In this document: positions 288 through 5,147 of the stretch, piece by piece
Numbering within the stretch: position 1 is the stretch's first letter
Layout: each line of letters starts with the position of its first letter
Virus record (IMG/VR): IMGVR_UViG_2703718802_000013
Coordinates: 1-9,563 of that record
Reading direction: 5' to 3' (one strand)
Length of the DNA: 9,563 nucleotides
Source of the DNA: a virus
Taxonomy: Duplodnaviria; Heunggongvirae; Uroviricota; Caudoviricetes
Notes under the pieces: generated by a model
Told to the model about the DNA's origin: nothing
The model's database searches: none
Seen by the model: the letters and a program-made list of their open reading frames with translations, nothing else
Program-made: the position numbers and the translations under genes

Positions 288-503
288 TCATAGCGATTTG
301 CTGGCTGGTGGGCAATTATCTTGCTTGTTGGGGCCGTATTGTGCTGCCATTTTCATCCGTTCAGAACGTGAATATTTTTTTAGAAACTCATCAAGGACAA
401 AAGCGCATGGTGCGAATCTTTCTGATTCATGCTCTGGCGCCATATTTTCGTGCTCTCTGTCCGTTTTTTGCGATGGTGTATTGGTTGATTCTTTGTTGGT
501 CAT
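288..503 (-). CDS. small hypothetical protein (71 aa), partner gene of RHH cassette 1; paralog of 954-1181
   Basis: Track ORF starting MTN. Its C-terminal region (FVLDEFLKKYSRSER) resembles that of the 954-1181 product (FALEDFVDKYPRRLK). It sits 57 nt downstream, on the minus strand, of the RHH gene 561-734, and the intergenic element is conserved with the one before 954-1181. The SD is weak. Confidence 0.4.
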   Translation of the reverse strand: MTNKESTNTPSQKTDREHENMAPEHESERFAPCAFVLDEFLKKYSRSERMKMAAQYGPNKQDNCPPASKSL

Positions 504-560
504 TGTGTGTACCTGTAAAGCAATGCGCCGTAGTACCTCACGCCACGGCGCTGATGTTTT

Positions 561-734
561 TTATCCTTTGGGTTCAATACCGCGTTGCTGTAATTCTTTT
601 CGGAGTACTCGCTTGATCCAGGTGGCTAAAGAAGTGTCACCGTCTGCTTTCGCTGCCTCTTCAAGTTGTGCTCTGAATTCTTCTGGTAGCCGCATTTGGT
701 ATGGAGGCGATCGCTTTTCCAATGGTGTTGACAT
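561..734 (-). CDS. ribbon-helix-helix (Arc/MetJ-like) DNA-binding protein, 57 aa
   Basis: Not in the ORF track because it is under 60 aa. My minus-strand translation is MSTPLEKRSPPYQMRLPEEFRAQLEEAAKADGDTSLATWIKRVLRKELQQRGIEPKG. The beta-strand then two-helix pattern (YQMRLPEEF...LATWIKRVLRKEL) resembles Arc-type repressors. The start codon overlaps a palindromic operator. Confidence 0.5.
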   Translation of the reverse strand: MSTPLEKRSPPYQMRLPEEFRAQLEEAAKADGDTSLATWIKRVLRKELQQRGIEPKG

Positions 735-776
735 GGTAATTACCCTTAATTACTATAGTTACATGGTAATTACCAT
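733..776. promoter_or_regulatory. two copies of a palindromic operator-like site (ATGGTAATTACC at 733-744; perfect 14-bp palindrome ATGGTAATTACCAT at 763-776)
   Basis: Read directly from the sequence. GGTAATTACC is self-complementary. The two copies are 30 bp apart and overlap the start codon and presumptive promoter of the minus-strand RHH gene 561-734. Confidence 0.45.
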
Positions 777-792
777 TGTACTTACCGTTATA

Positions 793-834
793 CAAAAAAC
801 AACGCCCCGCAGTGGTGGCTCACATACGGGGCGT
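793..834 (-). terminator. hairpin (ACGCCCCG / CGGGGCGT, 8-bp stem) followed by a T-run on the minus strand
   Basis: Stem arms at 802-809 and 827-834 with a 17-nt loop. The plus-strand A-run 794-800 reads as a T-run on the minus strand. It lies downstream of minus-strand gene 954-1181. It could instead be an RNA structural element of the duplicated module. Confidence 0.4.
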
Positions 835-865
835 CTAACCAAACCATTAATTGAGGTAACGATTA

Positions 866-920
866 TGGCTATAAAAGAGCATAGCTTACTCTTTATACAC
901 ACACAAACGCCCCGGAAACG
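866..920 (+). pseudogene. 5' remnant of an Icd-like gene (first ~18 codons only)
   Basis: ATG at 866 with a GAGG RBS. The translation MAIKEHSLLFIHTQT parallels MVAVNHIPHLVHTQT at the start of the Icd-like gene 1604-1801. Homology is lost after about 55 nt and no FVWRF or TEREAR motif follows. Confidence 0.3.
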
Positions 921-1484: not shown

Positions 1485-1529
1485 GTGCAAGTCACCTAAA
1501 AGTAACCTAGATTTCAAGGTGACTTGCAC
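1485..1529. promoter_or_regulatory. perfect 13-bp inverted repeat GTGCAAGTCACCT - N19 - AGGTGACTTGCAC (operator-like) in the divergent intergenic region
   Basis: Read directly. It lies between the minus-strand RHH-like gene (start 1418) and the plus-strand Icd-like gene (start 1604). A TATACT -10-like hexamer for the minus-strand gene is at 1451-1456. Confidence 0.45.
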
Positions 1530-1530
1530 C

Positions 1531-1572
1531 AAAAAAACAACGCCCCACAGTGCTGGAACACATGCAGGGCGT
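1531..1572 (-). terminator. hairpin (ACGCCC / GGGCGT) with a minus-strand T-run; paralog of the 793-834 element
   Basis: Stem arms at 1540-1545 and 1567-1572. The plus-strand A-run 1531-1539 is a T-run on the minus strand. About 75 percent identical by eye to 793-834 and its flank. Function uncertain (terminator or RNA structure). Confidence 0.35.
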
Positions 1573-1603
1573 CTAACCACAAACACTATAGAGAGGTAAA
1601 TTT

Positions 1604-1801
1604 ATGGTTGCCGTAAATCATATACCACACCTTGTACACACACAAACTGCCTTTGTGTGGCGTTTTCTGGCACTGAGTGCCGGAGAATCTCAAATCATCC
1701 ACGTAACCGCCTGGACGGAACGCGAAGCGCGTAACCTTTGCCCGTCCGATTGTGTTGCTGTATACGCCGCCCGTATTCGCCAGGGGTCACATCATGCGTA
1801 A
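1604..1801 (+). CDS. Icd-like small protein (host cell division inhibitor Icd-like family), 65 aa
   Basis: Track ORF with RBS GAGAGG. The motifs FVWRF ... TEREAR ... AARIRQG match what I recall of the Icd-like proteins annotated in enterobacterial P4-like and PICI elements. Paralogous to 2088-2261. Confidence 0.5.
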   Translation: MVAVNHIPHLVHTQTAFVWRFLALSAGESQIIHVTAWTEREARNLCPSDCVAVYAARIRQGSHHA

Positions 1802-1988
1802 AAACCGCTTGCAAAAAATTATAACGGGGCTGTATGCTTCCCCCGTCGCCCACATGGCGACCGGGTTTAGCAGCCTGAATACTACAGCGGACAGCCGCTT
1901 ACATTCCGATATGCGGTTTTTTTGTGTCCGTAAGCCTACCCATACCCGCATTATGGCGGGGCGTAACGGGGGAGCCTTTGCGCTCGCT

Positions 1989-2081
1989 GGTTCCTGTAGT
2001 GCCAGTCTGCTAACCCTGTTACGTCTCGCCACCCCGTTTAGCAGCGTAGTAGCGAGACTCCTTAATTTCACTACAGGAGCC
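1989..2081 (+). promoter_or_regulatory. candidate antisense pairing pair: 1989-2003 (GGTTCCTGTAGTGCC) is complementary to the RBS region of the second Icd-like gene at 2068-2081 (TCACTACAGGAGCC)
   Basis: The reverse complement of 1989-2003 is GGCACTACAGGAACC, against ACTACAGGAGCC at the RBS: 12 contiguous pairs if one G-U wobble is allowed, covering the AGGAG SD. This resembles the seqB/seqC logic of P4 CI RNA and P1 c4 RNA. RNA boundaries are unknown. Confidence 0.3.
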
Positions 2082-2087
2082 TTTCAC

Positions 2088-2261
2088 ATGGCTGTATCCG
2101 CACGCCCTTACTTTGTCTGGCGCTTTATGCAGTGCCACCACAGCAGCATTGCAATATTCACCGTTACCGCTGCCACTGAGTGCGAAGCCCGCGCCCAGCT
2201 GCCGCGCGCACATCTGATTTTTGTCGCCCGCATTCGCCAGGGGGAAACCTATGCACAATAA
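2088..2261 (+). CDS. Icd-like small protein, second paralog (57 aa)
   Basis: Internal ATG at 2088 of track ORF 1752-2261, preceded by AGGAG at 2075-2079 with an 8-nt spacer. The product MAVSARPYFVWRFMQ...TECEARAQLP...FVARIRQGETYAQ shares FVWRF, EAR and ARIRQG with 1604-1801. Confidence 0.5.
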   Translation: MAVSARPYFVWRFMQCHHSSIAIFTVTAATECEARAQLPRAHLIFVARIRQGETYAQ

Positions 2262-2481
2262 AACCACACCGGACGCAGCAGAAGAAGCAATGCAAATACT
2301 GATACGTGCGCTCGTTGATGTTACCCACATGGTGGAGATTATGGAGAGAAAATCACAGTCGGAGCACGACAAAAGAAAACTTAAAACAATAAAAATAATT
2401 GCCAAAAACTCGCTGATAAAAGTTACAGACATCCTTAATGAGGACATTAAAAGAATAAGGGAGAAAATTTGTGATGCATAA
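2251..2481 (+). CDS. hypothetical protein (76 aa)
   Basis: ATG at 2251 preceded by AGGGGGA. It overlaps the end of the Icd-like gene and sits in the same-strand operon leading to the primase. No recognisable motif. Confidence 0.4.
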   Translation: MHNKTTPDAAEEAMQILIRALVDVTHMVEIMERKSQSEHDKRKLKTIKIIAKNSLIKVTDILNEDIKRIREKICDA

Positions 2482-2701
2482 AATCCCTTTTGAAGTATTA
2501 ATCCACTCTGAAAACGCATTAATTAAAGCACGCGAAATGAATGCGTTGTTAATTAAATTAATTGAAGTGCCGGAAGGTGGTGAGGAATCAGGTGTATTAA
2601 TGTTTGCAGCCATTCAGACATTACTATCGCCTGTTATTGATGAACTGGATAAGGCAATGGCAATTCACGAAAATAATAACGCGCCCCACACCGGAGAATA
2701 A
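2474..2701 (+). CDS. hypothetical protein (75 aa)
   Basis: ATG at 2474 (the track starts at GTG 2471), with GGGAG upstream. Overlaps the previous ORF by a few nt. No recognisable motif. Confidence 0.4.
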   Translation: MHKIPFEVLIHSENALIKAREMNALLIKLIEVPEGGEESGVLMFAAIQTLLSPVIDELDKAMAIHENNNAPHTGE

Positions 2702-2706
2702 AAATA

Positions 2707-3006
2707 ATGAAACTTAAATATTCTGGCTTAACTGCCAGTGGCAACACTCACCCTAAATTTACGCGCGGTGATATTTACCGCGACCAGTACGGCGGCACGG
2801 TAATGATTAAGGGCGTGGCGGGACGGTGCGTAACTTACCGCCGTGAAGGTTACGAATATGATTGCGTGATGCCTGTTTATCAGTTCCGGCGTGATTTTTC
2901 TCTGGTACAGACCGCGCCGCATAACGTGCCCACCAGCAGGGAGAAAGCACGCGCCAATATTCAGGAAATAAAAAAGATGCTTAACGTATTCAGGGGTAAA
3001 AAATGA
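2707..3006 (+). CDS. hypothetical protein (99 aa)
   Basis: Track ORF with RBS GGAGAA about 9 nt upstream. Its stop overlaps the start of the primase gene (3003), suggesting translational coupling. Confidence 0.45.
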   Translation: MKLKYSGLTASGNTHPKFTRGDIYRDQYGGTVMIKGVAGRCVTYRREGYEYDCVMPVYQFRRDFSLVQTAPHNVPTSREKARANIQEIKKMLNVFRGKK

Positions 3007-5147
3007 AACTGGCACCGAACGTAAAACAGCAGTCACGCGGCATAAAACACAAAGAAACAGAAGTCATTATTTTTGCGGGTAGTGATGCCTGGTCACACGC
3101 AAAACAATGGCAGGAACATGACGCGCGTATGGCCGGAGATAATGAGCCTCCTGTGTGGCTTGGGGAGCAGCAGTTATCCGAACTGGATAAGCTGCAAATT
3201 GTGCCGGAAGGCAGAAAATCAGTACGCATATTCAGGGCCGGACATCTTGAGCCAGTAATGATCAAGGCGATTGGTCAGAAACTGGCGGCGGCAGGCGTAC
3301 AGGATGCAAATTTTTACCCTGAGGGAATGCACGTTCAGAAGGTGGAGAACTGGCGCGAATATCTGGCCCGTGAGCGGCAGAATCTTTCTGATGGTCTGGT
3401 TATTGAGCTTCCGGTAAAGAAAAAAGATACCGGAAGTCATAGCGATGACGAATTAAAGCCACGCGTTGAAAGTCGCGCCGATGGTGTTTTCTGGGTAACG
3501 CCCAAAGTGGATAAGCAGTCAGGCGAAATTATCCGGCCTGAGACGTGGTTATGTTCTCCGCTTGAACTACTGGGAACGGGGACGATCGGTAAAGAGCATT
3601 ACCGCGTGATGCGCTGGAAAAAAACCGCAAACCATGAAGTCATCACAATGGCGATCCCGTGTGGTGGTATCGGCGACCGTGACGGCTGGCGGTTACTTAA
3701 AGATCACGGGCTGAACGTGACAACCAACGGCAAATACAGGGCAATCCTGGCGGACTGGATGCAGTTAAGCGGAAGCCATGAGGAATGGCAGTTAAGCACA
3801 ACAACGGGCTGGCATTTTGGCGCGTACATCATGCCGGACGGTTCGATCATTGGTGATTCTGAAAAACCGATCCTGTTTACCGGAAAAAGCGCCGCGATTA
3901 ACGGTTATTCCGTGGCGGGTACGGCGGAGGGCTGGCGCGAGAGTGTGGCGCGGCTGGCTGGCGGTAATGCCTCAATGATGCTGGGTGTGGCAACGTCACT
4001 GGCAGCGCCTTTAATTGGCCTTGTGGGTGCTGACGGCTTCGGGGTGCATCTTTTCGAACAGTCATCGGCAGGTAAGACCACCACGCAGAACATCGCATCA
4101 AGTTTATGGGGAGAGCCGGACGCGCAGCGGCTGACCTGGTACGGCACGGCGTTAGGTATTGCCAATGAGGCCGAGGCCCATAATGACGGGCTTTTACCAC
4201 TGGATGAGATAGGCCAGGCCGGAAATGCGCGGGAAGTGTCAACGTCTGCTTATACGCTGTTTAACGGTTCAGGGAAATTGCAGGGGGCGAAGGATGGCGG
4301 CAACAGGGAGATCAAACACTGGCGAACGGTGGCAATCAGCACCGGAGAAATGGACGTTGAGACATTCCTCAAAAGTGAGGGGATAAAAGTTAAGGCGGGG
4401 CAGCTTGTCCGACTGCTTAACGTTCCGATGGAAAAAGCCACGAAATTTCACGAATACAGCAACGGTAAGGAACATGCTGACGCGTTAAAGGATGCCTGGA
4501 CAGCAAATCACGGGGCGGCGGGTCGTGAGTGGGTTAAATGGCTGGCAGGCCACCAGCAGGAGGCAAAGGACACGGTAAGGGAATGCCGCGAACGGTGGCG
4601 CAACCTGATACCGGAGAGTTACGGCGAGCAGGTCCACCGCGTGGGTGAACGTTTCGCCATACTGGAGGCCGCGCTTGTGCTTTCCGGTCATGTAACTGGC
4701 TGGGTCGTGCAGGAATGCCGCGACGCGATACAGCATAACTTTAATGCCTGGGTGAAAGAGTTCGGTACGGGCAACAGGGAACACAGGCAGATTATTGAAC
4801 AGGCTGAGGCGTTTCTTGCGGCCTATGGCCTGAGCAGGTTCGCCCCTGTCAATTATGACCCTGCCAGCCTGCCGATTTCAGAACTGTACGGCTACAGGGA
4901 AAGCGACGGGCGTTATGACGAGCCTGTTTTGTTTTACGTGCTGCCGGAGCCGTTTAGCTCACATGTGGCGAAGGGATTTAACAAGGATGCCGTAGCAAAG
5001 ACCCTTCATGAAGCCGGAATGCTGAGAAAACCAGCCAGCGGGCGGGGATGGCAAATCAGGACACCACGACTAAAACACCTGAAAGGGGCGCGGCTAAGAG
5101 TGTATGGCCTTTTGCTGACGCAGGACCACGATGCTGAAAATGATTAA
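3003..5147 (+). CDS. satellite-type primase/replication initiator (P4 alpha-like or PICI Pri-Rep-like, with a P-loop NTPase motif)
   Basis: 714 aa track ORF with an AGGGG RBS. It contains a deviant Walker A-like motif (SSAGKTT, encoded around 4068-4090). Its size and its position just upstream of an iteron array match replication proteins of P4-like and PICI elements. The domain assignment (DUF927-like) is from memory, not a search. Confidence 0.65.
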   Translation: MKLAPNVKQQSRGIKHKETEVIIFAGSDAWSHAKQWQEHDARMAGDNEPPVWLGEQQLSELDKLQIVPEGRKSVRIFRAGHLEPVMIKAIGQKLAAAGVQDANFYPEGMHVQKVENWREYLARERQNLSDGLVIELPVKKKDTGSHSDDELKPRVESRADGVFWVTPKVDKQSGEIIRPETWLCSPLELLGTGTIGKEHYRVMRWKKTANHEVITMAIPCGGIGDRDGWRLLKDHGLNVTTNGKYRAILADWMQLSGSHEEWQLSTTTGWHFGAYIMPDGSIIGDSEKPILFTGKSAAINGYSVAGTAEGWRESVARLAGGNASMMLGVATSLAAPLIGLVGADGFGVHLFEQSSAGKTTTQNIASSLWGEPDAQRLTWYGTALGIANEAEAHNDGLLPLDEIGQAGNAREVSTSAYTLFNGSGKLQGAKDGGNREIKHWRTVAISTGEMDVETFLKSEGIKVKAGQLVRLLNVPMEKATKFHEYSNGKEHADALKDAWTANHGAAGREWVKWLAGHQQEAKDTVRECRERWRNLIPESYGEQVHRVGERFAILEAALVLSGHVTGWVVQECRDAIQHNFNAWVKEFGTGNREHRQIIEQAEAFLAAYGLSRFAPVNYDPASLPISELYGYRESDGRYDEPVLFYVLPEPFSSHVAKGFNKDAVAKTLHEAGMLRKPASGRGWQIRTPRLKHLKGARLRVYGLLLTQDHDAEND

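What the first reader, a model, noticed from the sequence alone, without database searches (positions are those of the whole stretch)
1604..2261. Tandem Icd-like paralogs separated by a GC-rich noncoding stretch with an anti-RBS element
Two Icd-like genes (1604-1801 and 2088-2261) are separated by about 285 bp that has open frames on both strands but no convincing gene. Inside it, 1989-2003 is complementary to the SD region of the second Icd-like gene (2068-2081) over 12 positions, counting one G-U wobble. In P1 the icd gene follows the c4 antisense RNA, and in P4 the CI RNA (seqB) pairs with seqA and seqC. This stretch may therefore encode a CI/c4-like immunity RNA controlling the downstream operon, including the primase. 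Nearby stems (AACGGGG ~1968 with CCCCGTT ~2033; GTCTCGC 2022 with GCGAGAC 2052) suggest structure.
Basis: partly seen in the sequence, partly recalled or inferred. Interest (0 to 1): 0.6.

Follow-up and report, generated by a model that had tools for sequence, protein, structure and literature searches.

The report
P4-type immunity RNA in a satellite

Summary
Window 1949-2036 (+) is a full-length Rfam C4 antisense RNA (72.2 bits; cut-off 45). Its hairpin loop b' (1992-2001) pairs perfectly over 10 nt with b2 (2069-2078), which covers the Shine-Dalgarno of Icd-like-2 (ATG 2088). A second loop element a' (2007-2013) matches a2 (2038-2044). Upstream copies of both targets (a1 1867-1873, b1 1881-1887) sit in a c4-a1b1/IsrK-like leader with a terminator-like hairpin.

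In relatives, b' changes together with b1 and b2: about 90% of positions stay paired, against 62-68% in shuffles.

The RNA sequence is about 80% identical to phage P1/P7 c4. The architecture matches satellite phage P4:
- an internal constitutive-type promoter (1809-1838);
- seqA-like leader, CI-like RNA, seqC-like targets;
- a kil-like gene (Icd-like-2) nested in an eta-like frame (1794-2261);
- a replication operon with a DUF927 primase/helicase.

The element is a capsid-encoding PICI-like satellite. The open frame over the RNA shows no amino-acid constraint but is kept open, as expected for P4 eta. C4/isrK hits in Gram-negative PICIs were reported in 2023. This is a new member of a known kind; interest is low.

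The parts
1604..1801 (+). Icd-like-1 gene (65 aa). Its stop overlaps the start of the long frame (ATGCGTAA).
   Evidence: NF033153, 63.1 bits. The overlap with ATG 1794 is conserved in all type-A relatives.
1794..2261 (+). Eta-like long open frame (155 aa). It begins upstream of the internal promoter, runs through the RNA module and ends as Icd-like-2.
   Evidence: RefSeq CDS in the 100%-identical E. coli locus. The frame is open in 26 of 28 unique relatives. pN/pS is about 0.9. Compensating +1/-1 indels preserve the frame. P4 has the same arrangement.
1809..1838 (+). Internal promoter-like element TTGCAA-18 nt-TATGCT, the analogue of P4 PLE and the P7 promoter in front of c4.
   Evidence: The hexamers and spacing are kept at the same aligned position while the spacer sequence differs: type B TTGACT-18-TATCGT, L301-type TTGATC-18-TATGAT, P7 TTGACC-17-TATAGT, P4 TTGCCT-18-TATAGT. 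It matches only 8 of 12 consensus positions, so the promoter scan missed it.
1832..1887 (+). Upstream target region (seqA-like): the c4-a1b1 motif 1832-1881 containing a1 (1867-1873, in a hairpin loop), followed by b1 (1881-1887), which overlaps its last base.
   Evidence: RF03163, 45.5 bits against a cut-off of 46.7. a1 and b1 are exact 7-nt complements of a' and b'. b1-b' covariation: 88.0% paired against 62.3% in shuffles, 0/500.
1888..1930 (+). Terminator-like hairpin AGCCGC/GCGGUU plus U7 (1893-1923), enclosed by the outer stem CGGACA/TGTCCG. It would end a short IsrK/seqA-like RNA spanning about 1845-1923.
   Evidence: isrK RF01394 match at 1845-1923, 36.6 bits. A hairpin plus T-run is present at this position in 94 of 134 unique modules, with different stem sequences. 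The outer stem shows a compensatory change in type B. The hairpin itself is weak.
1949..2036 (+). C4/CI-family antisense RNA. The predicted mature form is 1955-2033, with b' loop 1992-2001 and a' 2007-2013.
   Evidence: RF01695, 72.2 bits, full model. The fold gives -45.4 kcal/mol, z -4.5. The ends are mapped from the annotated 77-nt P7 c4.
2023..2058 (+). Alternative hairpin: the C4 3' strand GTCTCGC (2023-2029) pairs with GCGAGAC (2052-2058), placing a2 (2038-2044) in the loop.
   Evidence: Exact 7-nt complement. It appears in the MFE fold of the leader. Across the family, own-pair complementarity of at least 5 nt occurs in 86% of cases against 32% for cross pairs.
2038..2079 (+). Downstream target region (seqC-like): a2 2038-2044 and b2 2069-2078, overlapping the SD AGGAG 2075-2079.
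   Evidence: b'-b2 covariation: 90.5% paired against 67.7% in shuffles, 0/500.
2088..2261 (+). Icd-like-2 (57 aa), the kil-like first gene of the controlled operon.
   Evidence: NF033153, 52.3 bits. It is 51% identical to P7 Icd. It occupies the same position as the 65-aa Icd-like gene of P4.
2251..5147 (+). Downstream, tightly overlapping operon: ORFs 2251-2481 and 2474-2701, a DUF4222 gene 2707-3006, and a DUF927 primase/helicase-type replication gene 3003-5147.
   Evidence: Start/stop overlaps. Pfam DUF4222 and DUF927. NCBIfam weak helicase match.

Best explanation
This is the immunity region of a P4-type satellite, here a capsid-encoding PICI-like island of E. coli. It is built from a c4/CI-family antisense RNA.

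Repressed state:
1. An internal, probably constitutive promoter (1809-1838) starts transcription at about 1845.
2. The leader carries decoy/target sites a1 and b1, then a terminator-like hairpin.
3. Read-through RNA is processed to a stable RNA of about 79 nt (1955-2033).
4. The a' and b' elements of that RNA pair with a2 and b2 on the same or other transcripts. This occludes the Shine-Dalgarno of Icd-like-2 (kil-like).
5. Without translation the transcript is prematurely terminated (polarity), so the overlapping downstream operon with the DUF927 replication gene stays silent.

Induced state:
1. Transcription that starts further upstream includes Icd-like-1.
2. Its stop overlaps the ATG of the long frame 1794-2261 (eta-like).
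3. Ribosomes translating through the leader, RNA gene and targets would then make these transcripts insensitive to the RNA and to termination, as described for P4 eta.

Shown here: family membership of the RNA; its fold; complementarity to both target sets; covariation of the specificity loop with both targets; the conserved promoter-like element; the conserved open frame without amino-acid constraint; and the identical layout in P4.

Inferred by homology: expression and processing of the RNA; repression of translation; polarity on the primase operon; and the bypass by translation of the long frame.
For: RNA family hits:
- Rfam C4, 72.2 bits, full length.
- c4-a1b1, 45.5 bits, and isrK-like, 36.6 bits, directly upstream.
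- About 80% DNA identity to P1/P7 immI, with c4 annotated in P7.
- The C4 fold has z -4.5. The MFE fold of the leader pairs b' with b2.

Pairing and covariation:
- Exact complements: b'/b2 10 nt; b'/b1 7 nt; a'/a1 and a'/a2 7 nt each.
- Family-wide own-versus-other test.
- Formal counts on 19 relatives: b'-b2 90.5% paired against 67.7% in shuffles, 0/500; b1-b' 88.0% against 62.3%, 0/500.

Promoter:
- Hexamers and spacing are conserved over divergent spacers in four lineages.

P4 comparison:
- P4 has the same order: promoter, isrK/c4-a1b1 hit, C4 hit at 74.9 bits, b2 over the SD, a 65-aa Icd-like gene nested in a frame open for 456 nt that starts upstream of the promoter with an ATGA overlap, then the alpha primase.
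- PMC10111431 summarises the P4 kil/eta mechanism and reports C4 and isrK hits in Gram-negative PICIs.

Long frame:
- Open in 26 of 28 unique relatives.
- Its start overlaps the upstream stop in all relatives that have an upstream gene.
- pN/pS is about 0.9 against 0.45 in Icd-like-2.
- Single-base indels occur in compensating pairs.

Operon and element type:
- Downstream genes overlap.
- AlpA, DUF927, capsid E, head decoration D and Nu1 domains identify a capsid-encoding satellite.
Against: - There are no expression data, so RNA production, processing and repression are all inferred.
- The promoter matches only 8 of 12 consensus positions and was not called by the scan.
- The terminator-like hairpin is weak: a 6-bp stem with a 14-nt loop. 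The 81-nt short RNA folds no better than shuffles (z -1.6).
- The upstream, immunity-insensitive promoter has not been located.
- Icd-like-2 does not align with P4 Kil by BLASTP. Pfam Phage_ASH hits P4 Eta but not the extension here. The eta analogy therefore rests on architecture, not sequence.
- An open frame of this length arises by chance in about 2% of shuffles for this frame and 7% for any frame. The close relatives share ancestry.
- Two of 28 modules have a broken frame.
- P1/P7 lack the long frame, so it is not needed for the RNA mechanism itself.
Confidence: 0.78

Rival explanations
1. A purely P1-type module. The RNA represses Icd-like-2 translation and, by polarity, the downstream operon. 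The long open frame 1794-2087 is an inherited accident that is never translated or has no role.
For: - The RNA and Icd-like-2 are closest in sequence to P1/P7, which lack the long frame.
- pN/pS is about 0.9 in the extension.
- The chance of an open frame is 2-7%.
- Two relatives have a broken frame.
- More distant Icd-like subfamilies have stops in this frame.
Against: - The frame is open in 26 of 28 unique modules, across at least 14 different loop specificities and three upstream architectures.
- Two independent pairs of +1/-1 indels restore the frame.
- The start codon always overlaps the upstream stop.
- P4, with a very different sequence, has the same nested arrangement, for which a function is reported.
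- The two broken cases are mosaics, and possibly assembly chimeras.
Confidence: 0.2
2. IsrK-type positive control. The short leader RNA that ends at the terminator (about 1845-1923, carrying a1 and b1) acts in trans as an anti-antisense or activator. It frees the ribosome site of the long transcript, as shown for Gifsy-1 IsrK-orf45-anrP. This could operate alongside repression by the C4-like RNA.
For: - isrK model match at 1845-1923, including the hairpin and U7.
- A terminator at this position in 94 of 134 modules.
- a1 and b1 mimic a2 and b2.
- The AUG at the C4 5' end (1953) is in frame with, and exactly 45 codons before, ATG 2088, recalling orf45.
- The Gifsy-1 mechanism is shown experimentally (PMC4825925).
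Against: - The isrK score is below Rfam's cut-off (36.6 against 50).
- The hairpin is weak.
- In the L246 group the frame from AUG 1953 stops at the UAG inside a2. Family-wide, this frame usually ends before the downstream gene.
- No data on the abundance of a short RNA.
Confidence: 0.25
3. The stretch is simply the N-terminal coding part of a 155-aa Icd-like protein, as annotated in RefSeq, with no RNA gene.
For: RefSeq annotates 1794-2261 as one CDS. The frame is open in close relatives.
Against: - A full-length C4 hit well above threshold.
- Homology to the experimentally defined c4 of P7 and to the region that holds CI of P4.
- No amino-acid constraint, and locally frameshifted peptide sequences among relatives.
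- No Pfam or NCBIfam domain in the extension.
- Substitutions follow RNA pairing, not codons.
Confidence: 0.02

Closest known systems
Satellite phage P4 immunity region (PLE - seqA - CI RNA - seqC - kil nested in eta - ... - alpha primase)
   Same: - The order of elements is the same: promoter-like hexamers, isrK/c4-a1b1-type leader with terminator, C4-family RNA, a target over the SD, and a short Icd-like gene nested in a long frame. That frame starts upstream of the promoter and overlaps the stop of the upstream gene.
- A replication/primase operon lies downstream.
- The host element is a satellite.
   Different: - The sequences are distant. a' is UUCUCAC in P4 and CUGCUAA here.
- Icd-like-2 does not align with Kil by BLASTP.
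- Phage_ASH does not hit the extension here.
- The gene coupled upstream is an Icd-like paralog, not the AlpA homolog.
- The replication protein is DUF927-type, not P4 alpha.
- The element carries lambda-type capsid and packaging genes.
Phage P1/P7 immI operon (a1 b1 - c4 - a2 b2 - icd - ant1/2)
   Same: - The closest in sequence: about 80% DNA identity over 1857-2046.
- Identical a', a1 and a2.
- b2 lies over the SD of an Icd homolog that is 51% identical.
- The same promoter position.
   Different: - The b' specificity differs from P1, P7 and three other P1-like types.
- The controlled genes are a replication operon, not the antirepressor ant.
- P7 has no long frame through c4.
- A C1 operator is annotated upstream in P7 and has no counterpart here.
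Gifsy-1 IsrK - orf45 (STnc1160) - anrP locus of Salmonella
   Same: - A leader RNA ending at an intrinsic terminator.
- A processed stable RNA downstream.
- A translated frame of 45 codons across that RNA, whose nucleotide sequence but not amino-acid sequence is conserved, coupled to the next gene (PMC4825925).
- Here AUG 1953 lies 45 codons before ATG 2088.
   Different: - The isrK match here is below threshold.
- The frame is fused to Icd-like-2 and does not stop at its start codon.
- The Gifsy-1 short RNA is an activator and the controlled gene is an antirepressor.
C4/isrK hits reported in Gram-negative PICIs and helper-embedded PICIs (PMC10111431, 2023)
   Same: The same class of element (integrase, AlpA, Bro/immunity zone, primase, late genes), and the same inference that the Bro zone provides P4-like immunity.
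   Different: That paper reports the hits only in general terms. It gives no anatomy of this locus, no target covariation and no account of loop diversity.

Membership tests
Rfam RF01695 C4 antisense RNA | Covariance-model score above the curated gathering threshold over the full model | tested here: met
   72.2 bits against 45, model positions 1-87 of 87, E 5.9e-13.
Rfam RF01695 C4 antisense RNA | A long closing stem enclosing two hairpins, with the second loop (b') and the following single strand (a') exposed | tested here: met
   The MFE and centroid folds reproduce the model structure: -45.4 kcal/mol, z -4.5, 0 of 200 shuffles as stable.
P1/P7-type c4 system | a' and b' complementary to two target sets, a1 b1 upstream and a2 b2 downstream, with b2 over the ribosome-binding site of the next gene | tested here: met
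   Exact complements of 7, 7, 7 and 10 nt. b2 overlaps AGGAG 2075-2079. Covariation is shown.
P1/P7-type c4 system | A stable RNA of about 77 nt processed from a longer transcript (RNase P at the 5' end, from my own knowledge of the P1 literature) | not testable with these tools
   Only the homologous ends can be mapped from the P7 annotation: 1955-2033.
Rfam RF03163 c4-a1b1 | Score above the gathering threshold | tested here: not met
   45.5 bits against 46.7. P4 itself also falls just short at 44.1 bits. The two hairpins and a1 are present.
Rfam RF01394 isrK | Score above the gathering threshold, with a terminal hairpin and U-run | tested here: not met
   36.6 bits against 50. P4 seqA scores 60.8 bits. 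The hairpin plus U7 is present, but the 81-nt short leader RNA that contains it folds no better than shuffles.
P4-type immunity region (kil nested in eta) | The first translated gene after the RNA is a short Icd-like/Kil gene that is the terminal part of a longer frame starting upstream of the internal promoter and coupled to the upstream gene | tested here: met
   Frame 1794-2261 is open. ATG 1794 lies upstream of the promoter at 1809-1838 and overlaps the stop of Icd-like-1. This is conserved in relatives. P4 has the same arrangement.
P4-type immunity region (kil nested in eta) | Translation of the long frame prevents immunity-specific (Rho-dependent) termination | not testable with these tools
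   Known for P4 only through the summary in PMC10111431. The original paper is not held.
NCBIfam NF033153 Icd-like protein | Profile score above the curated cut-off | tested here: met
   63.1 and 52.3 bits against 25 for the two ORFs. P4 ORF 73.9 bits. Inhibition of cell division was not tested; for P1 Icd it is reported in PMC11897509.
Capsid-encoding PICI-type satellite | Integrase, AlpA, replication module and a partial set of head/packaging genes in an island of about 11 kb | tested here: met
   AlpA, DUF927, capsid E, decoration protein D and Nu1 in the window. The related E. coli locus lies between cspD/yljB and clpS and carries an integrase. Helper dependence was not tested.

The most novel reading that the evidence does not exclude
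The locus may be a three-layer RNA switch specific to these satellites.
1. A hypervariable b' loop, with at least 14 types in this one subfamily, changes together with b1 and b2. It would define many mutually non-cross-reacting immunity groups, letting several related satellites (up to 6 places per E. coli genome) coexist or compete. Mosaic recombinants would then escape their own repressor.
2. The short a1b1 leader RNA may act as an anti-antisense decoy.
3. The upstream paralog Icd-like-1, through which the immunity-insensitive transcripts must pass, may itself be guarded by an undescribed cis-antisense sRNA of about 80 nt (1612 to 1532, minus strand), in the manner of a type I toxin-antitoxin pair.
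Probability: 0.3. Interest if true: 0.45.

Novelty: new member of a known kind. Interest (0 to 1): 0.25.

Why it matters
It matters mainly for annotation. RefSeq labels 1794-2261 as a 155-aa "Icd-like protein" and shows no RNA gene. The master switch of a common E. coli satellite is therefore invisible in the records, even though matches to this region occur in 927 of 5426 complete genomes. Recognising the P4-type immunity region predicts which genes are silent in the resident state (Icd-like-2 and the primase operon). It also predicts how they would be released. Finally, it suggests that the short b' loop sets immunity specificity, which could be used to classify satellites and to predict which of them can coexist. 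None of this changes current understanding of the mechanism.

Tried and rejected
- A 15-mer scan of genome contigs returned mostly chance matches. Only some loci, mainly P1-like and Acinetobacter/Pseudomonas modules, were real.
- The consensus promoter scan found nothing in 1380-2300. The internal promoter was recognised only by comparison with relatives.
- I first read the 155-aa RefSeq CDS as a plain mis-annotation. I withdrew that after finding the same nested frame in P4 and the kil/eta description.
- I tested whether a frame from the AUG at the C4 5' end to the next gene (orf45-like) is a general family feature. It is not: 61 of 118 modules stop earlier, mostly at the UAG in a2.
- The test for amino-acid constraint in the extension was negative. 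In that test about 15 nt at the 5' end are misaligned by a 3-nt indel, which affects all three frames equally.
- BLASTP of Icd-like-2 against P4 Kil gave no alignment. Pfam has no hit on either Icd-like ORF or on the extension.
- The original P4 kil/eta paper (PMC94026) is not held.
- Literature searches with 'icd' or 'Icd-like' returned mostly unrelated papers.
- The weak symR match (E 0.057) is not treated as evidence of membership.
Full report
**Observation**

The two flanking ORFs are Icd-like. ORF 1604-1801 and ORF 2088-2261 match NCBIfam NF033153 at 63.1 and 52.3 bits against a cut-off of 25. They are 45% identical to each other. The interval between them is richer in G+C (54-58%) than its surroundings (37-50%).

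The reported complementarity is real. Positions 1992-2001 (TCCTGTAGTG) are the exact complement of 2069-2078 (CACTACAGGA). With one U-G wobble and two G-C pairs, the helix extends to 13 pairs, 1989-2001 with 2069-2081. It covers the Shine-Dalgarno AGGAG at 2075-2079, 8 nt before ATG 2088.

**What it is**

A scan of the whole window against Rfam gives one hit above threshold: C4 antisense RNA (RF01695) at 1949-2036 on the + strand. It scores 72.2 bits against 45 and matches the full model. With relaxed thresholds, the c4-a1b1 target motif appears at 1832-1881 (45.5 bits against 46.7). An isrK-like match appears at 1845-1923 (36.6 bits against 50) and ends in a hairpin followed by seven U.

The RNA alone folds into the family structure at -45.4 kcal/mol, z -4.5. 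Exact-match searches show the complete set of pairing elements known from phage P1:
- b' (1992-2001, second hairpin loop) matches b2 (10 nt) and b1 (1881-1887, 7 nt).
- a' (2007-2013) matches a1 (1867-1873) and a2 (2038-2044), 7 nt each.

Window 1857-2046 is about 80% identical in DNA to the immI region of P1, P7 and related phage-plasmids. In the P7 record this region carries the annotated 77-nt c4 RNA, followed by icd and ant1/2. By alignment with that annotation, the mature RNA here should be 1955-2033.

**Covariation of the specificity loop**

Between P7 and the window, a', a1 and a2 are identical. The b' loop, b1 and b2 all differ, and they differ concordantly.

Pattern scans of viral and metagenome contigs gave more than 130 unique modules. 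Among 70 distinct loops:
- The loop matches its own b2 over at least 7 nt in 83% of cases, against 3.4% for other elements' b2.
- It matches its own b1 in 60% of cases, against 2.1%.

On an alignment of 19 members of the closest subfamily:
- The b'-b2 helix has 90.5% of cells paired against 67.7% in shuffles (0 of 500). Seven of 10 pairs change on both sides, and slid controls give 38-62%.
- The b1-b' helix has 88.0% against 62.3% (0 of 500), with 6 of 7 pairs changing on both sides.

This subfamily alone holds at least 14 loop types. None is shared with the five P1-like types seen.

**Other conserved parts of the leader**

- *Promoter.* A promoter-like element, TTGCAA-18-TATGCT (1809-1838), aligns with TTGACT-18-TATCGT, TTGATC-18-TATGAT, P7 TTGACC-17-TATAGT and P4 TTGCCT-18-TATAGT. 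The spacers are unrelated in sequence. It has 8 of 12 consensus matches and was missed by the scan.
- *Terminator.* A hairpin plus T-run between b1 and the RNA is present in 94 of 134 unique modules, with different stems. Here it is weak.
- *Alternative hairpin.* The 3' strand of the closing stem (2023-2029) is complementary to 2052-2058, which places a2 in a loop. This alternative hairpin covaries in distant members: own at least 5 nt in 86%, cross 32%.

**The open frame**

RefSeq annotates 1794-2261 as a 155-aa Icd-like protein in a 100%-identical E. coli locus.

- The frame is open in 26 of 28 unique modules of the subfamily.
- pN/pS in the extension is 0.8-0.95, like the two other frames (0.7-1.4). 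In Icd-like-2 it is 0.43-0.51 for the same sequence pairs.
- Some relatives read a 30-codon segment in another frame because of paired +1/-1 indels that restore the frame.
- Shuffles give an open frame in 2.3% of cases for this frame and 6.7% for any frame.
- More distant Icd-like subfamilies and P7 have stops in this frame.
- The two broken cases are mosaics whose b' does not match b1 or b2. They may be assembly chimeras.

**P4 comparison**

P4 explains the open frame. In the P4 genome the same order is found on the strand of the alpha primase gene:
1. promoter hexamers;
2. an isrK hit (60.8 bits) and a c4-a1b1 hit (44.1 bits);
3. a C4 hit (74.9 bits);
4. TTCACAGGA over AGGAGG;
5. a 65-aa ORF matching the Icd-like profile (7.8e-21).

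That ORF is the end of a frame open for 456 nt. The frame starts upstream of the promoter, with an ATGA overlap to the AlpA-homolog gene.

PMC10111431 summarises the published P4 mechanism:
- Kil is a truncated Eta.
- Full-length Eta is translated only from an upstream late promoter, coupled to the AlpA homolog, and its translation prevents termination.
- Rfam C4 and isrK hit several Gram-negative PICIs.

The original paper (Forti et al. 1999) is not held. My recollection of its abstract agrees with that summary.

In the window and its relatives, the first in-frame ATG lies upstream of the internal promoter. It overlaps the stop of the upstream gene (ATGnnTAA) whenever there is one. In the architecture without Icd-like-1, the frame starts about 354 nt upstream of the kil-like ATG. 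A frame kept open without amino-acid constraint is what the eta role predicts.

A related precedent is Gifsy-1. There a 45-codon frame across the processed RNA is translated and coupled to the next gene, and the short leader RNA IsrK acts as an activator (PMC4825925). Here AUG 1953 is 45 codons before ATG 2088, and in P4 the equivalent AUG is 46 codons before. This shorter frame is not conserved family-wide.

**Context**

The window carries AlpA (1-210), DUF4222, a 714-aa DUF927 protein, major capsid protein E, head decoration protein D and Nu1-type small terminase. The related E. coli island lies between cspD/yljB and clpS and has an integrase. The genes from 2088 to 5147 overlap or abut one another. 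Matches to 1400-2500 occur in 927 of 5426 complete E. coli genomes, with up to six places per genome. The element is a capsid-encoding PICI-type satellite.

**Mechanism**

The most likely mechanism is the P4/P1 one. A constitutively made antisense RNA blocks the ribosome site of the kil-like Icd-like-2. By polarity, this silences the replication operon. Transcripts started upstream are translated through the region and escape. The sequence evidence and comparative evidence are shown here. Expression, processing, repression, Rho dependence and the bypass are inferred from homologs.

**Comparison and novelty**

In sequence the RNA and Icd-like-2 are nearest to P1/P7. In architecture and host element they match P4, whose Kil does not align with Icd-like-2 by BLASTP. 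Pfam Phage_ASH hits P4 Eta but not the extension here.

The kind is well known: P1 c4 since 1990, P4 CI in the 1990s, Rfam families since 2010 (PMC2864571), and hits in PICIs noted in 2023. This locus is a new, uncharacterised member. Its practical value lies in annotation and in the documented diversity of the specificity loop.

Noticed in passing
window 1532-1612 (minus strand); second copy 783-872 (minus strand): A candidate cis-antisense sRNA of about 80 nt lies opposite the SD and start codon of Icd-like-1. It has a hairpin with the anti-SD CCUCUC in its loop, then a GC-rich hairpin plus U7 (z -3.6). The second copy (z -4.2) lies opposite a truncated Icd-like start at 865. A TTGTGT-17-TATGAT/TATGCT element is conserved upstream in both copies. 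The element is conserved in 11 unique sequences, with one clear compensatory pair and several G-U changes. Only a weak symR-like Rfam match was found (E 0.057). Many E. coli matches to the region begin exactly at its 3' end.
   Followed up: partly
window 288-870 versus 954-1610: A tandem duplication of about 680-740 bp. Each copy has a YlcI/YnfO-like small gene on the minus strand (561-734; about 1239-1418), a 71-75 aa minus-strand ORF (288-503; 954-1181), a conserved 75-nt element between them (493-567 and 1171-1245, 81% identical), and the antisense element plus an Icd-like start.
   Followed up: partly
loci L260, L297, L282, L291 (module region): Mosaic modules in which the b' loop matches only one, or neither, of b1 and b2 (for example b' TTTCCCAATTTG with b2 AAACATAGGAG). 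These are either recombinants between immunity types that would escape their own repressor, or chimeric metagenome assemblies of co-resident satellites.
   Followed up: partly
L306 4169-4768 (minus strand; phage P4): Pfam Phage_ASH (PF10554) matches residues 22-146 of P4 Eta, which is the translation of the seqA-CI-seqC RNA region. It does not match the equivalent extension in the window. The 'protein family' may therefore largely reflect conserved RNA-coding DNA. The P4 record still labels a 137-aa ORF over CI as 'cI gene product'.
   Followed up: partly
window 1485-1496 and 1518-1529: A perfect 12-nt inverted repeat, GTGCAAGTCACC / GGTGACTTGCAC, separated by 21 nt. It lies in the divergent region between the YlcI-like gene and Icd-like-1, next to long A/T runs. 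It could be an operator or a minus-strand terminator. A smaller terminator-like site was called at 1493-1477.
   Followed up: no
loci L007, L008, L011, L033, L050, L052, L081 and others (Acinetobacter genomes): Many Acinetobacter species carry C4-type modules with the same a' core. Each has its own b' loop matching an SD site in front of a very short ORF (22-40 aa), not an Icd-like or antirepressor gene.
   Followed up: no
loci L157 and L186: L157 has two complete C4 modules on one contig, with different b' loops, each in front of an antirepressor-like gene. In L186 the ORF after the module appears to run into a second module.
   Followed up: no
window 1639-1668 (+): A terminator-like hairpin, CACACAAACTGCCTTTGTGTG followed by GCGTTTTCTG, lies inside the Icd-like-1 coding sequence, overlapping the region that would hold the minus-strand promoter of the antisense candidate.
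   Followed up: no
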